Origin: Octopus sinensis
Taxonomy: Eukaryota
Length of the DNA stretch: 64,000 bases
Direction: 5' to 3'
Assembly (NCBI RefSeq): GCF_006345805.1
Contig: NC_043020.1
Location: forward strand, 16,244,001 to 16,308,000
The notes under the pieces were generated by a model, which made no database searches, was not told the origin of the DNA, and saw only the letters and a list, made by a program, of their open reading frames with translations. A program made the translations under genes and the position numbers. Shown here in pieces: positions 7,890 to 61,785 of the stretch. Position 1 is the first letter of the stretch. Each line of letters starts with the position of its first letter.

Positions 7890-8498
7890 CTCTTACTTTA
7901 ACCTTTTACTTCTTTCAGTCATTAGACCGTGACCATACTGGGTGACTGCCTTGAAGGATTGTAGTCAAATGAATTGGTTCCAGTATAATTTTTTGTAAAG
8001 CCTGGTACTTATTCTATTGGTCTCCCCTGCTGTACTGCGAAGTTATAAAGACATGCACACACCAACACCAATCATCAAGTGATTGTTGGGGAAAAAACAC
8101 AGTCACAAAGACACACTCACACAGATATATTTTTTTCTCTCCTTGTTTCTCTCCGTGTTTCTTTTCTGTGTATCTTTCTGTTGAAGAGCGTAGGCTCGAA
8201 ACGTTAAAGACTTGTTTTATCTATATTCCTGAGCGCCATACTAATACAATTGTTTGTTTATATTCCACCTGCCTTCGTCTTTTGTTTATTTTCATAAAGC
8301 TTCCCGTTATATATATATATATATATATACATATACGATGGACATCTTTCAGTTTCCATCTACCAACTCCAGTCACAAGGCTTTGGTTGGCCCGAGGCTA
8401 TGGTAGAAGACACTTGCCCAAGGTGCCATACAGTGAGACTGAACCCAGAACCATGTGGCTGGGAATCAAGTTTCTTACCACACAGCCATGCCTATGCC
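7890..8498 (-). mobile_element. SINE family A with nested family D element
   Basis: Tail 7890-8125, head 8330-8498. Confidence 0.8.
8128..8310 (+). mobile_element. Family D: ~190 bp hammerhead-bearing mini-element (Penelope pLTR or retrozyme-like)
   Basis: TCTTT-CTGTTGA-A-GAGC-GTAG-GCTC-GAAAC-GTT-AAAGA at 8173-8210; six copies in the window. Confidence 0.7.
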
Positions 8499-8844
8499 TA
8501 TATATATGAAAGTAGGGTATGTAGTGTGAGTGCTGGATGAATGGTGTGAGTGCTAGATGATGTGATGTGAGTGTTAGATGTGTATGTCTTTTATTTTTCA
8601 TCTTTTATTTGCTTCAGGAGCTGGCCAATATATGGTGATATGATTTGGTCGAAATGTATTGTGTGGGGATCGATTTAATGATGTGGTTACAGGAGTGAGT
8701 ATGTTGTAGGAGGGGTTAATATAAAATATGAAGGTGTTGGTGTGTAATATATATATATGTACATATAGCTGTTCCAACATGTAACAACCAGTTCATGAGG
8801 TTCCCCTTACAGACTACATTCTTTGTAATATTTTTTCAAGAGAA

Positions 8845-9235
8845 GTGGCTGCATGGTAAGTAGCTTGCTTACCAACCACATGGTTCCAAGTTCATTCCCA
8901 CTGTGTGGCACCTTGGGCAAGTGTCTTCTACTATAGCCTCGGGCCGACCAAAGCCTTGTGAGTGGATTTAGTAGACGGAAACTGAAAGAAGCCTGTCATA
9001 TATATGTATGTATGTGTGTGTGTGTTTATGTGTTTGTGTTTGTCCCCCCAACATCACTTGACAACCGATGCTAGTGTGTTTACATCCCCGTAACTTAGTG
9101 GTTCGGCAAAAGAGACTGATAGAATCAGTACTAGGCTTACAAAGAATAAGTCCTGGGGTTGATTTGCTCAGCTAAAGGTGGTGCGCCAGCATGGCCACAG
9201 TCAAATGACTGAAACAAGTAAAAGAGTAAAGAGTA
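8845..9235 (+). mobile_element. SINE family A
   Basis: Near full-length match to family consensus. Confidence 0.9.
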
Positions 9236-9337
9236 TATTAAAAACAAAATTTAGCTTGTACAACATGAATCAAATGAGAGAGAGAGCTTCCTTTGGATAA
9301 GATGCTGATCCATCAAAGATCTCTCTCTCTCTCTATC

Positions 9338-9565
9338 CGCTCAGTTGAAGTCGACTCTCGGTTACTCATTGGATCAGTGTCCTCCAGTCAGTTCTATCCT
9401 GGGCTGCTTCCTTCAGATTGGCCATGTCCATTCCGGTATCACTCCTGATGGTATCAAGCCAGCGGCTTCTTAGTTGGCCTCTTCCTCTTTTGCCACTGAC
9501 CATTCCAAGCATGATGTCCTTCTCCAGGGATTCTCTCCGCATAATATGACCGAAATATGCCAATA
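9338..9565 (-). mobile_element. RTE (BovB-like) LINE 3' fragment
   Basis: YFGHIMRRESLEKDIMLGMVSGKRGRGQLRSRWLD is the typical RTE ORF C-terminus. Confidence 0.85.
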
Positions 9566-9574
9566 GAATAAGTA

Positions 9575-9900
9575 CAGGAGGATTTCAGCTTGTGACTTAA
9601 ACCAAAGAAGCAGTCATAAATTCCGAATCACTATTTCCAACTGTAACAATAAATCATTCCCCTTTGTGGTACCTGTTTACCATGTACATAGACAGAGCCA
9701 CTGAGAGTTACATGTTCTGGCTACAAGTAAAAATGTAAAGCCCAAGAGAATGGTTGAATGAGTGACCTTGCAGCTTGTATTCTCACATACCTTAATAATC
9801 TTGGCTGGCCATCCACATTTACCACTGACCAAATACAGGAGGTTAAGTAAGGTCAGCTTCATAGGTCAAGAAATCAAATTATCTAATGCAATATATACAA
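9575..9900 (-). pseudogene. Possible highly decayed LINE reverse transcriptase fragment
   Basis: GKCGWPAKIIK and VTVGNSDSEFMTAS resemble the RT segment preceding the QG motif. Confidence 0.35.
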
Positions 9901-58369: not shown

Positions 58370-58655
58370 TTAAAATTTTAAAAAATATAAAAAAAAACAA
58401 TGATGATAATAATAATTTATTATTTAGCTGTAATTACTAGAGATTACAATTGGGTGATTTTAACAAATTTCTTAAATGATTACTACTTCACGGACATTTC
58501 GATCTATTATAAGTTATGATGTAATTCAGGAAAATTGATTTCAGTTTCTAGATAAAGTAATTGTATCAAAATATTGTTTAAACTAACAGATAATTTTGTT
58601 TTTTAACACATTACATGCACACACAAACAAATGCATTAATAAATTTGCATATACA

Positions 58656-59043
58656 TAGGCACAGGAGTGGCTGTGTGGTAAGTAGCTATAGGCGCAGGAG
58701 TCGCTGTGTGGTAAGTAGTTTGGTTCCGGGTTCAGTCCCACTGCATGGCACCTTGGGCAAGTGTCTTCTACTATAGCCTCAGGACTACCAAAGCCTTGTA
58801 AGTGGATTTGGCAGATGGAAACTGAAAGAAGCCCATTGTATATATATATTTGTGTGTGTGTGCGTGTGTGTGTGTGTGTGTGTCTGTGTTTGTCCCCCCA
58901 ACATTACTTGACAACCAATGCCGGTGTGTTTACATCCCCGTCACATAGTGGTTCAGCAAGAGAGACCAATAGAATAAGTACTAGGCTTACAAAGAATAAG
59001 TCCTGGGGTCGATTTGCTCAACTAAAGGCAGTGCTCCAGCATG
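58656..59043 (+). mobile_element. SINE family A with duplicated 5' head
   Basis: ATAGGCRCAGGAGTSGCTGTGTGGTAAGTAG twice in tandem. Confidence 0.88.
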
Positions 59044-60959
59044 ATACACTGGATAAAACCGGGGACCTTGGATGCTAACATCCCTTTAACAGGATTTTAT
59101 ATCTTTGATCTAATTTAATATCTAAATATATATGTATGTATCTAGAGAGAGTGAGGGAGAGAGAAGAGAGGGAGGGGGAGGGATAGATATACAGACAGAC
59201 AGACAAGCAGGCAAGTAGGCAAGCAGGCAGGCAGATAGATAAATAGATAGATAGATAGATAGATAGATAGATAGATAGATAGATAGATAGATAAGATAGA
59301 TAGATAGATAAGATAGATAGACATACACACATGCATGTAAAACTTTCTTACCATCTACTTTTAATATTAAATAACTTGTGTGTTAAGTGATTTGTTTCTT
59401 TGCCATAACATACTTAGATCTATAAAGTTTTAGCCAGCCTTAAGTCTTCCAATGTATGAAAACATTACAATATACTCATGGACAGAAAAAGGAAGAACAG
59501 CTGTAAATGCTGTGGATCTCGGCCCTACTGGGAGCCTCGGTCCGTGAGCTTATTGTATATATGTAGGCACAATGTTTGCAATCATTGTAACATAGTGATG
59601 ACTAAAAAAATCTATAAAGTATGGCTGTGTGGTAAGAAGTTTGCTCTCCAGCCATGTGGTTTCAGGTTCAGTCCCACTCCATGGTATCTTGAACAAGTGT
59701 CTTTCTTCTACTATAGGTAAAGCCTTGTGAATGGATTTGGTAGCTAAGAAGCCCAGTGTATGTGTGTTTATGTATGTGTGTGTGTGTGTGTGTGTGTGTT
59801 ACTGTCTCCTTGACTAGACATCACAGTCAAGTTGAGTCCTTCATTTCCAATCTTCCATGAAAACACGTCTGGTCGTAGGGAAATATTACCTTACTTGATA
59901 GCAGGCAAAGGTTGGAGACAGGAAGGGCATCCAGCTGTAGAAAAAATCCACTTCCACAAATTCCAACCAACCCATGCAAGCATGGAATATCGTTGTCATC
60001 ATCATCATCATCATCATCATCATCATCATTTAATGTTTACATTCATCTAACCCATGCAAGCATGGAATATCATCGTCATCATCACCATCATCATCATCGT
60101 CATCAGCATCATCATCATATTCGTTGTCATTGTCATCATCATGATCATCATCGTCATCGTTGTCATCATGATCATCATCATCATTTAATGTCCATTTTCA
60201 TACTGGCATGGGTTAGACCATTTGACAGTAATGGTAAGGCTGGTGAGGCTATACCAGCTTCCATTGTCTGTTTTGGCAAAGTTTCTACAACTGGATGCCC
60301 TTCCAAATACCAACCACTTTACAGAGTGTACTGGGTGCTTTTGTATGTGGCACCAGCACTGGTACTAATTCTGCTGTGGTGGACAGGCCCTCTTGAGAAC
60401 AGCAAGGCACCAGACACCTCAGTCCTTTGTCATCTGCTTCATGAGGCTCAAGGTCTTGAGATGCTATTCTGGATCTCCTTCCTTCACAAGTTCCATCCCC
60501 TTTAAGTGATCAGGTAATGATGATGATGACGGTGATGATGATGATGGCAATGCCGACGACAGTGATGACAATGATTGTGATGATGATTATGATGATGATG
60601 ATGATGATGATATGATGATGATAATGTTCTAACAGTACGTTATAGCAGTGAAAGATAACACTAGTGATTCAAAAGTAACACTAGTAATTTAATAGTCAAC
60701 TTAGTAGTAAAAAAAAATGTGTTAAATATGTAAATTGGTCAATCCAGCTTACTTTGACCACAAATATCAGTGGATTTATAATCAATATGTTTGTGAATAT
60801 TGAAGGAAAGTGCACATCTCGTGACAAGACTCCAGAAAGGGCTAAATGTACAGTAAATGTGCCTGTTCCTTCTTGTTCTGTTCAAGAGTATATTGTATGT
60901 ATAGACATGGTGTTTACATTTAATGTAACATACTGCGTTGGTTAAAAATCAACATATGC

Positions 60960-61376
60960 TCTTTTACTCTTTTACTTGTTTCAGTCATTTGACTGTGGCC
61001 ATGCTGGAGCACTGCCTTTAATCGAGCAAATCGACCCCGGGACTTATTCTTTGTAAGCCCAGTACTTATTCTATCGGTCTCCTTTGCCAAACCGCTAAGT
61101 GACGGGGACGTAAACACACCAGCATCAGTTGTCAAGTAATGCTAAGGGTACAAACACAGACACACAAACACATACATATACATATATATATACATATATA
61201 CGACAGGCTTCTTTCAGTTTCCGTCTACCAAATCCACTCACAAGGCATTGGTCGACCCGGGGCTATAGCAGAAGACACCTGCCCAAGATGCCATGCAGTG
61301 GGACTGAACCCGGAACCATGTGGTTGGTTAGCAAGCTACTTACCACACAGCCACTCATGTTCTATGTTGCAAAGTC
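60960..61376 (-). mobile_element. SINE family A
   Basis: Reverse copy. Confidence 0.9.
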
Positions 61377-61392
61377 TCTCTCTTTATCTATA

Positions 61393-61785
61393 TATAGATT
61401 GCTGGTGACTACACATTTATTTTCTCTCCTTGTTTCTTTCTGTGTTCCTTTCTGTGGAAGAGCATAGGCTCGAAATGTTAAAGACTTTTTCACTTCCCGA
61501 GTGTTATACTAATACATCTATTTGTTGTCTACACCACCTGTCTTTGTCTTTTGTTTTTTTGTGAATTCTCCCTATATATATATATATATCAGTCGCCATG
61601 ATAGATTGTTAGCCACTACACACATTTTTTTTTCTCTCCTTGTTTTTTCTGTCCCTTTCTGTAGAAGAGCGAAGGCTCGAAACGTAAAAGACTTTTTCTA
61701 TTCCTGAGCGTTATACTAATACATCTGTTTGTTTTGTACACCACCTGTCTTCATCATTTGTTTTTTTCATAAATTCTCCCTATAC
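61393..61785 (+). mobile_element. Tandem pair of family D mini-elements
   Basis: CTGTGGAAGAGCATAGGCTCGAAATGTT and CTGTAGAAGAGCGAAGGCTCGAAACGTA, separated by (TA)n. Confidence 0.72.

What the first reader, a model, noticed from the sequence alone, without database searches (positions are those of the whole stretch)
8128..61785. Six-copy ~190-bp mini-element carrying a minimal hammerhead-like ribozyme with fixed U6, abutting (TA)n
Seen: copies at about 8128, 24162, 28515, 38123 (minus), 61393 and 61593. Each has stem I (UCUUU or CUUU / AAAG), core CUGUNGA, one extra A, stem II GAGC-loop-GCUC, and GAAAY-GU-H with a loopless stem III (the 38123 copy has AAAAC). Position 7 (U/A/G), the stem II loop (GUAG/AUAG/GAAG) and H17 (U/A) vary between copies while stem II is invariant, as expected under structural constraint. 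Established: minimal type I hammerheads that need dimerisation occur in Penelope pLTRs and metazoan retrozymes, and A6 is normally conserved. Inference: a non-autonomous Penelope-dependent or retrozyme-like family with a non-canonical core; the tandem pair at 61393-61785 could form the dimer.
Basis: partly seen in the sequence, partly recalled or inferred. Interest (0 to 1): 0.75.

Follow-up and report, generated by a model that had tools for sequence, protein, structure and literature searches.

The report
Penelope tails with altered hammerhead core
The six repeats are cut-off tails of a very abundant Penelope-type jumping gene whose small self-cutting RNA motif has one normally fixed letter changed in about 14,000 copies; because the rest of the motif stayed unchanged as the family evolved, it likely still works as a slowed cutter, though cutting is untested.

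Summary
The six copies and the U6 hammerhead-like motif are real, but they are not a separate mini-element or retrozyme. They are 5'-truncated 3' ends (pLTRs) of an autonomous Neptune/Nematis-type Penelope-like retrotransposon. Longer copies run into an RT + GIY-YIG ORF, and young elements carry the motif in both pLTRs. U6 is in 13,995 of 14,501 exact genome matches and is the majority letter in all 12 subfamilies sampled. Across those subfamilies only N7 and H17 change, the two positions hammerheads leave free, while 43 of 77 flank columns vary. So the fold is under selection despite U6. A sister Penelope family keeps A6, but its younger branch swept a different uridine-turn change (U4C, 7,450 copies). 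Insertions do not pile up at the cut site in either family. Best reading: a slowed, helper-dependent ribozyme that is not needed at the copying step; cleavage is untested. The scan noted this U6 core before, in this genome (e1-10332850) and in others.

The parts
8128..8307 (+). 5'-truncated pLTR stub, young subfamily type (U7, U17), followed by (TA)n
   Evidence: 92-93% identical to pLTRs of long-ORF elements
8173..8209 (+). minimal hammerhead motif, core CUGUUGA, master-type
24157..24313 (+). 5'-truncated pLTR stub (U7, A17)
24179..24215 (+). hammerhead motif; C15.2 decayed to U
28517..28704 (+). 5'-truncated pLTR stub (A7, A17) between two TA runs
28575..28611 (+). hammerhead motif, core CUGUAGA, master-type
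38124..38327 (-). 5'-truncated pLTR stub (A7, A17) between two TA runs
38214..38250 (-). hammerhead motif with G12 decayed to A, predicted inactive
   Evidence: G12 as general base is established knowledge
61394..61572 (+). pLTR stub of an older subfamily (G7, U17, CCCGAG anchor)
61447..61483 (+). hammerhead motif, core CUGUGGA; loop AUAG and U15.2 are decay
61591..61780 (+). pLTR stub of a younger subfamily (A7, A17), adjoining the TA tail of the previous stub
61654..61690 (+). hammerhead motif, core CUGUAGA, loop GAAG (decay)

Best explanation
The six repeats are 5'-truncated 3' ends (pLTRs) of an autonomous Penelope-like retrotransposon that sit at (TA)n runs, and the hammerhead they carry has U in place of A6 throughout the lineage and likely works as a slowed, helper-dependent ribozyme that is likely not needed at the copying step. 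Shown: the stubs belong to an element with one RT + GIY-YIG ORF between two pLTRs; U6 is the master letter from the oldest to the youngest subfamily; the rest of the motif stayed fixed while N7, H17 and the flanks changed; insertions read through the cut site. Inferred: the element's endonuclease nicks TA-rich DNA, the RT starts at a fixed 3' point and usually stops early, leaving 100-250-nt stubs. Also inferred: in tandem transcripts two motifs pair through the ACGU palindrome, probably after refolding by the element's own protein, and cut slowly or late. A6U would lower the rate enough that most templates stay uncut while being copied, and selection keeps the catalytic frame.
For: Identity: longer copies run 5' into a 3' UTR, GIY-YIG and RT. 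Of 20 loci picked by RT alone, 18 carry the unit downstream, all with U6 in the 3' pLTR. Six have a direct-repeat 5' pLTR of about 120-1,390 nt, 92-99% identical. Ten open frames of 829-1,009 aa hold DKG, YIDD, a C-X4-C-X2-C linker and EN motifs, and are 94.6-99.6% identical in DNA. Pfam RVT_1 scores 32.0 bits, above cut-off. 82 of 92 anchor-picked copies have a TA run at the 3' end. U6: 13,995 exact matches against 506 with another letter; 154 of 159 anchor-picked whole motifs. Selection on the fold: over 12 subfamilies N7 changes 6 times through all four bases, H17 changes 4 times among C/A/U and is never G by majority. Only 1 of the 35 other motif columns varies (a CpG column in a group of 4) against 43 of 77 flank columns (Fisher p 1.3e-8; 4.8e-7 with N7 and H17 counted). 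A sister Penelope family with A6 has the same stem II and a compensatory stem I pair: G-C/G-U in 61 of 63 copies against C-G in 121 of 159 here. Its younger branch swept U4C (7,450 exact matches against 4,574 with U4). Literature: natural A6C and U4C hammerheads are slow but detectably active (PMC3088659, PMC7151607). A Poseidon PLE hammerhead cuts only with the element's protein, and catalytic mutants still insert in vitro (PMC11167929).
Against: No cleavage was shown. In a pairwise mutagenesis study of a type III hammerhead, single and double mutants of the CUGA turn had low activity with no rescue except the C3-G8 swap (PMC9901934), and PLE minimal hammerheads are already weak with A6 (PMC4209133). 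There is no covariation inside the family, because the stems are invariant. No genomic footprint of cutting: 2 of 188 copies start within 2 nt of the cut site and 179 extend past it; the A6/C4 sister shows none either (0 of 70 by inspection), so this does not single out U6. That U6 itself is selected is not shown: 34 of 77 flank columns are also invariant. Subfamilies were defined by hand from downstream flank sites, which inflates flank change there; the 21 upstream columns not used for grouping vary too (19 of 21) but include slippage. U6 lets the monomer close an alternative helix U4-G16.2, G5-C15.2, U6-A15.1 (pair probability 0.81 in 77 U6U7 copies, 0.36-0.44 with other N7). The double-hammerhead form scores -14.7 kcal/mol against -10.7 per monomer hairpin. 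GIY-YIG scores below the Pfam cut-off (16.9 and 20.2 bits against 22.6).
Confidence: 0.58

Rival explanations
1. Same element, but the motif no longer cuts. It is kept as an RNA structure (extended hairpin or protein-binding site) needed for packaging or copying.
For: A6 substitutions are damaging in canonical hammerheads. U6 creates a continuous hairpin in the monomer. Copies read through the cut site. Catalytic mutants of a PLE hammerhead still insert in vitro. About 1% of copies have A6 again (23 of the first 100 of 506 non-U6 hits), yet no sampled subfamily has A6 as majority.
Against: A plain hairpin would not explain why unpaired G8, A9, the extra A, G12 and A13 stay fixed, why H17 moves among C/A/U but never G, or why N7 takes all four bases although U7 would extend the hairpin. 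The A6 sisters misfold into a similar hairpin in another register, so mispairing is not special to U6.
Confidence: 0.24
2. U6 is a fully competent alternative core: the dimer, a tertiary contact or the ORF protein compensates for the lost adenine.
For: U6 persisted through subfamilies whose copies are about 19% to 3% diverged, including the youngest long-ORF elements, with no A6 takeover.
Against: No second change accompanies U6 inside the motif apart from loop II length and one stem I pair. No double mutant rescued the CUGA turn in PMC9901934.
Confidence: 0.1
3. The 37-nt block is conserved for a reason other than RNA folding (promoter element or DNA-level protein site in the pLTR), and the hammerhead look is inherited.
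For: pLTRs hold PLE promoters (PMC6765202). There is no covariation within the family. Other short flank blocks are also invariant.
Against: Change is confined to exactly N7 and H17, and there is a compensatory stem I pair between sister families.
Confidence: 0.05
4. One reading: an independent, non-coding ~190-bp retrozyme-like family that amplifies as tandem units or circles.
For: Many copies are 180-230 nt long (27 of 92). A few near-identical neighbouring stubs occur (L015; L200).
Against: 5' ends are ragged and continuous with the ORF. The same sequence flanks long ORFs. The window pair is two subfamilies.
Confidence: 0.03

Closest known systems
Minimal type I hammerheads (min-HHR) in pLTRs of metazoan Penelope-like elements (PMC4209133; seen: main text parts 1-2 of 4, supplement file 2 part 2 of 3)
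   Same: Position in both pLTRs, extra nucleotide between 9 and 10.1, G10.1-C11.1, palindromic 15.2-16.2 with no loop III, U-rich 5' and AU-rich 3' flank, mostly single truncated copies.
   Different: The published consensus is CUGANGAH. All 44 representatives in the part I read have A6; the only core change there is U3-A8. Here U6 is the lineage-wide state. A descriptor that requires A6 would miss these copies.
Neptune/Nematis-type endonuclease-bearing PLEs (PMC8557442; seen: 12 passages)
   Same: Single ORF with RT and C-terminal GIY-YIG, CX2-5CxxC linker, partial tandems forming pLTRs, inverted 5' copies, heavy 5' truncation, microsatellite bias.
   Different: Placement between Neptune and Nematis was not tested by tree; the hammerhead core is non-canonical.
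Natural position-6 and position-4 hammerhead variants: Bcep176 A6C and viroid U4C (PMC3088659 passages; PMC7151607 part 1 of 4)
   Same: A single change in the CUGA uridine turn; reported as slow but active, and A6C favours Mn2+.
   Different: Those are rare single examples in a phage or viroid with a full stem III. Here A6U (about 14,000 exact copies) and, in the sister family, U4C (7,450) swept whole retrotransposon lineages in a stem-III-less motif.
PAc Poseidon element of Anolis (PMC11167929; seen: passages)
   Same: PLE with a hammerhead in the pLTR; insertions read through the cut site; AT-rich target.
   Different: A different PLE clade. PAc cleavage was shown, and needs the protein; nothing was assayed here.
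Non-LTR retrozymes (10.64898/2026.07.22.740005; seen: part 1 of 5)
   Same: Short hammerhead-bearing units related to PLE pLTRs.
   Different: Retrozymes are non-coding tandem repeats with a hammerhead in each unit. These stubs are ragged fragments of a coding element.

Membership tests
Endonuclease-bearing Penelope-like element | One ORF with RT followed by C-terminal GIY-YIG endonuclease | tested here: met
   RVT_1 above cut-off; GIY-YIG E 0.0078 and 0.00075, below cut-off, but CxxC-YIG, EH and HF motifs present (YIG pattern in 9 of 10 ORFs)
Endonuclease-bearing Penelope-like element | pLTR direct repeats from partial tandems flanking the ORF | tested here: met
   6 of 20 RT-picked loci, repeats of about 120-1,390 nt, 92-99% identical
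Endonuclease-bearing Penelope-like element | Heavy 5' truncation, fixed 3' end, occasional inverted 5' copy | tested here: met
   (92 copies); inverted partial pLTR in L032
Neptune/Nematis-type PLE | CX2-5CxxC linker between RT and EN | tested here: met
   C-X4-C-X2-C in 10 of 10 long ORFs; feature as defined in PMC8557442
Neptune clade specifically | RT phylogeny groups with reference Neptune elements | not tested
   No reference set was at hand; PDB search gave no match
PLE minimal hammerhead (min-HHR) | Core C3 U4 G5 A6 N7 G8 A9 | tested here: not met
   U6 in 154 of 159 and 13,995 of 14,501; all other core letters match
PLE minimal hammerhead (min-HHR) | G12 A13 A14 A15.1, U16.1, H17 not G | tested here: met
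   153-157 of 159 at each fixed position; H17 is A, U or C in 155 of 159
PLE minimal hammerhead (min-HHR) | Extra nucleotide before stem II, G10.1-C11.1, palindromic stem III without loop | tested here: met
   A9a 158 of 159, G-C 143 of 159, ACGU palindrome by majority in 11 of 12 subfamilies
PLE minimal hammerhead (min-HHR) | Stems supported by compensatory change | tested here: inconclusive
   None within the family; one double change in stem I between this family (C-G) and its sister (G-C/G-U)
PLE minimal hammerhead (min-HHR) | Self-cleavage after H17 as a dimer or with protein help | not testable with these tools
   No assay; no raw RNA reads available
Non-LTR retrozyme | Non-coding element of discrete unit length | tested here: not met
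   Continuous with a coding PLE; ragged 5' ends
Non-LTR retrozyme | Tandem arrays of like units, each with a hammerhead | tested here: not met
   The window pair belongs to two subfamilies; nearly all of 192 sampled copies are single
Non-LTR retrozyme | Abundant small circular RNA | not testable with these tools
   Only assembled contigs were available

The most novel reading that the evidence does not exclude
Penelope elements in this genome are selected for a deliberately slowed hammerhead. Two sister lineages independently fixed different substitutions in the CUGA uridine turn (A6U; U4C) while keeping every other catalytic position, and each mutant lineage outgrew or replaced its canonical relatives. 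The ribozyme would act as a timer or protein-gated switch: cutting too early destroys the template, cutting late processes or circularises the RNA. A large class of animal hammerheads with non-canonical cores would then be invisible to current descriptors.
Probability: 0.3. Interest if true: 0.7.

Novelty: new variant of a known kind. Interest (0 to 1): 0.45.

Why it matters
What hammerheads do for Penelope elements is still open (PMC8557442 calls their function unclear). This lineage is a natural experiment: a normally fixed core letter changed once, the element went on to make at least 14,000 copies through a dozen subfamilies, and the rest of the ribozyme stayed under selection. The genome also supplies natural controls: A6 copies of the same family, an A6 sister and a U4C sister branch. 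A few cleavage and retrotransposition assays could therefore tell whether PLEs need fast cutting, slow cutting or only the fold. It also shows that searches requiring CUGANGA undercount animal hammerheads. The six window copies themselves are ordinary truncated insertions.

Tried and rejected
Rfam scan of the window at E <= 10: no hammerhead family among the best 150 of 321 matches shown; the other 171 were not displayed. Sequence search of the PDB with the ORF: no match. RNA runs: no RNA holder listed. Laying contigs of four guessed-RNA runs gave no information on cut ends or circles. The idea that position 6 is free like N7, raised by the many C6 copies in old subfamilies among pattern-picked hits, was rejected: in anchor-picked old copies U6 stays the majority, and C6/A6 are scattered decay. 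The idea that U6 is a special 'lock' hairpin was weakened, because A6 sisters misfold too. A cut-site pile-up of 5' ends was looked for and not found in either family. tblastn found no piece of this ORF in the window. No sister ORF was found within 1.5 kb upstream in 60 loci, some of them duplicates; it appeared 2.7-3.0 kb upstream in 3 of 20 longer stretches. The paper on about 150,000 small PLE hammerhead variants (PMC5785218; size recalled) is not held, so I could not check whether it lists U6 or C4 cores. File 1 of the PMC4209133 supplement could not be searched.
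Full report
Observation. The six copies are at the stated places and each holds the motif as described, with C3 at 8178, 24184, 28580, 38245 (minus), 61452 and 61659. The window lies in a 2.72-Gb animal genome, G000. It looks octopus-like from a recalled SINE sequence and from an earlier scan note; I did not test that. 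The family is far beyond chance: the exact 28-letter motif with U6 occurs 13,995 times, its reversed control 0 times, and an independent anchor just downstream occurs 14,350 times. These are lower bounds, because decayed copies are missed.

What the unit is. The copies share a sharp 3' end at (TA)n (82 of 92 anchor-picked copies have a TA run there) but not a 5' end. Aligned lengths in those 92 copies run from under 100 to over 600 nt, median 181. Searching with sequence upstream of one longer copy gave copies sharing up to 1.5 kb more, one with an inverted partial copy at its 5' end. Extending four of them showed GIY-YIG pieces in all four and RT pieces in two. I then picked 20 loci by RT similarity alone (from 150 scored). 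Eighteen carry the unit downstream of the ORF, all with U6 in that 3' copy; L086 and L089 carry none. Six have a second copy upstream as part of a direct repeat of about 120-1,390 nt, 92-99% identical. Five of these 5' copies include position 6: four have U and one has C. Ten loci have open frames of 829-1,009 aa with DKG, YIDD, a C-X4-C-X2-C linker and endonuclease motifs, 94.6-99.6% identical in DNA over 45 pairs. I did not establish that any frame is complete from its start codon. Pfam gives RVT_1 above cut-off and GIY-YIG below it. This is the anatomy of a Neptune/Nematis-type Penelope-like element as described in PMC8557442 (12 passages seen). The window copies are therefore truncated pLTR stubs. 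The pair at 61394-61780 belongs to two subfamilies and is separated by 17 nt of TA, so it is best read as two insertions into the same kind of target.

The U6 core. With the other 27 letters fixed, position 6 is U in 13,995 and another letter in 506 matches. In the first 100 listed of each, my hand count gives C69/A23/G8 at position 6, and U48/A23/C16/G13 at position 7. To avoid selecting on the motif, I sampled 192 copies by three downstream anchors: the first 90, 70 and 30 listed places on contig C1, plus two neighbours. I dropped 4 duplicates, 19 truncated or gapped copies and 10 truncated inside the 5' half, leaving 159. U6 is in 154 of them and is the majority in all 12 hand-defined subfamilies, whose copies are about 19% to 3% diverged from their own majority. 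Along that series N7 changes six times through all four bases, H17 changes four times among C, A and U, and the outer fifth stem I position gains a U-A pair in the three youngest subfamilies. Of the 35 other motif columns only one varies, a CpG column in a group of four, against 43 of 77 flank columns (Fisher p 1.3e-8; 4.8e-7 when N7 and H17 are counted). The grouping used downstream flank sites, so the flank figure is inflated there. The 21 upstream columns not used for grouping also vary (19 of 21), though they include slippage. The pattern says the hammerhead frame has been under purifying selection in the transposing lineage while carrying U6. It does not show that U6 itself is selected, since 34 of 77 flank columns are invariant as well.

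A sister family as control. A related pLTR has the same stem II with a 3-nt loop and canonical CUGANGA (4,574 exact matches, which include a few per cent of A6 copies of the U6 family; 137 with another letter at 6, some of them loop-deleted U6-family copies). Its fourth stem I pair is G-C or G-U in 61 of 63 anchor-picked copies, against C-G in 121 of 159 here; this is the one compensatory change found. Three of 20 longer stretches show a PLE ORF, mostly 52-76% identical in the aligned pieces, 2.7-3.0 kb upstream on the same strand. Unexpectedly, 31 of the 63 sister copies have C at position 4. They are linked to flank markers and less diverged (3.3% against 6.9% over the motif), and they number 7,450 exact matches genome-wide. 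So two sister lineages each fixed a different change in the CUGA uridine turn and kept the rest.

How it most likely works. Insertion at TA runs with early stop of the RT explains the stubs (inferred from PLE biology). For the ribozyme, natural A6C and U4C variants are slow but active (PMC3088659 passages; PMC7151607 part 1 of 4), and CUGA mutants were low and not rescued in a pairwise mutagenesis study (PMC9901934 passages). PLE minimal hammerheads cut weakly and only as dimers (PMC4209133). The one reconstituted PLE hammerhead cuts only with the element's protein and is dispensable for insertion in vitro (PMC11167929 passages). Here, folding favours inactive hairpins. U6 can pair with A15.1 (pair probability for that helix 0.81 in 77 U6U7 copies, 0.36-0.44 with other N7, 0.18 in 9 natural A6 copies, 0.01 in 30 sister copies, which misfold another way). 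The double hammerhead scores -14.7 kcal/mol against -10.7 per monomer; tertiary contacts are not modelled. Insertions do not pile up at the cut site: 2 of 188 copies start within 2 nt of it and 179 extend past it, and none of 70 sister copies starts there by inspection. So templates were uncut, or re-ligated, when copied. I commit to a slowed, helper-dependent ribozyme (0.58), with 'dead but structural' as the main rival (0.24). The identity of the stubs as PLE ends is much more certain, about 0.97.

Novelty. The element type and the minimal hammerhead are known. In the published alignment all 44 rows of the part I read have A6, under the consensus CUGANGAH. Eight full-text searches showed no listing that describes a U6 or C4 core in a PLE or a cephalopod PLE hammerhead; I judged most hits by title and abstract start. 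A repeat annotation of Octopus vulgaris lists recently active Penelope families and does not use the word ribozyme (PMC13282606 passages). The most relevant paper, PMC5785218, is not held and may contain such variants; I saw it only as a reference in PMC6765202 (passages). The retrozyme definition is from 10.64898/2026.07.22.740005 (part 1 of 5). The scan itself has noted the U6 core before, in this genome and in others. My reading was written down before I saw those notes, and they are not independent support; one of them prompted the cut-site test. Verdict: new variant of a known kind, interest 0.45.

Noticed in passing
G000 genome-wide; e.g. L370, L374, L439, L447, L451: A sister Penelope family whose younger branch has a U4C hammerhead core (CCGACGA) in 7,450 exact copies, more than its canonical branch (4,574); a second swept change in the uridine turn.
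   Followed up: partly
window 24405-24540: Near-perfect 136-bp inverted repeat right after the TA tail of the 24157 copy; it scores against a plant miRNA model only as a generic hairpin, below the gathering score. Possibly back-to-back ends of another repeat.
   Followed up: no
position 7 of the motif, all subfamilies: N7 changed six times and H17 four times along the subfamily series, well above the flank average of about one; this could be rate tuning or a mutational hot spot.
   Followed up: no
L112, L123, L127, L134: A6 copies look somewhat enriched in the G7 subfamily (9 of the 23 A6 hits among the first 100, while G7 is 13 of 100 among U6 hits); no shared marker was seen, so a small revertant branch is not shown.
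   Followed up: partly
L009, L096, L127 and L004/L031: Further repeat families with canonical minimal hammerheads and different stems II lie in the same loci, often beside TA runs.
   Followed up: no
window, e.g. 8337-8495 and 61206-61355: Many copies of a SINE-like repeat (recalled as an octopus SINE) directly beside TA runs and beside these stubs.
   Followed up: no
L095:2260-2900: Near-identical pLTR and 5' UTR sequence is held by public runs labelled with four different coded organisms, so the young subfamily may be shared by close relatives.
   Followed up: no
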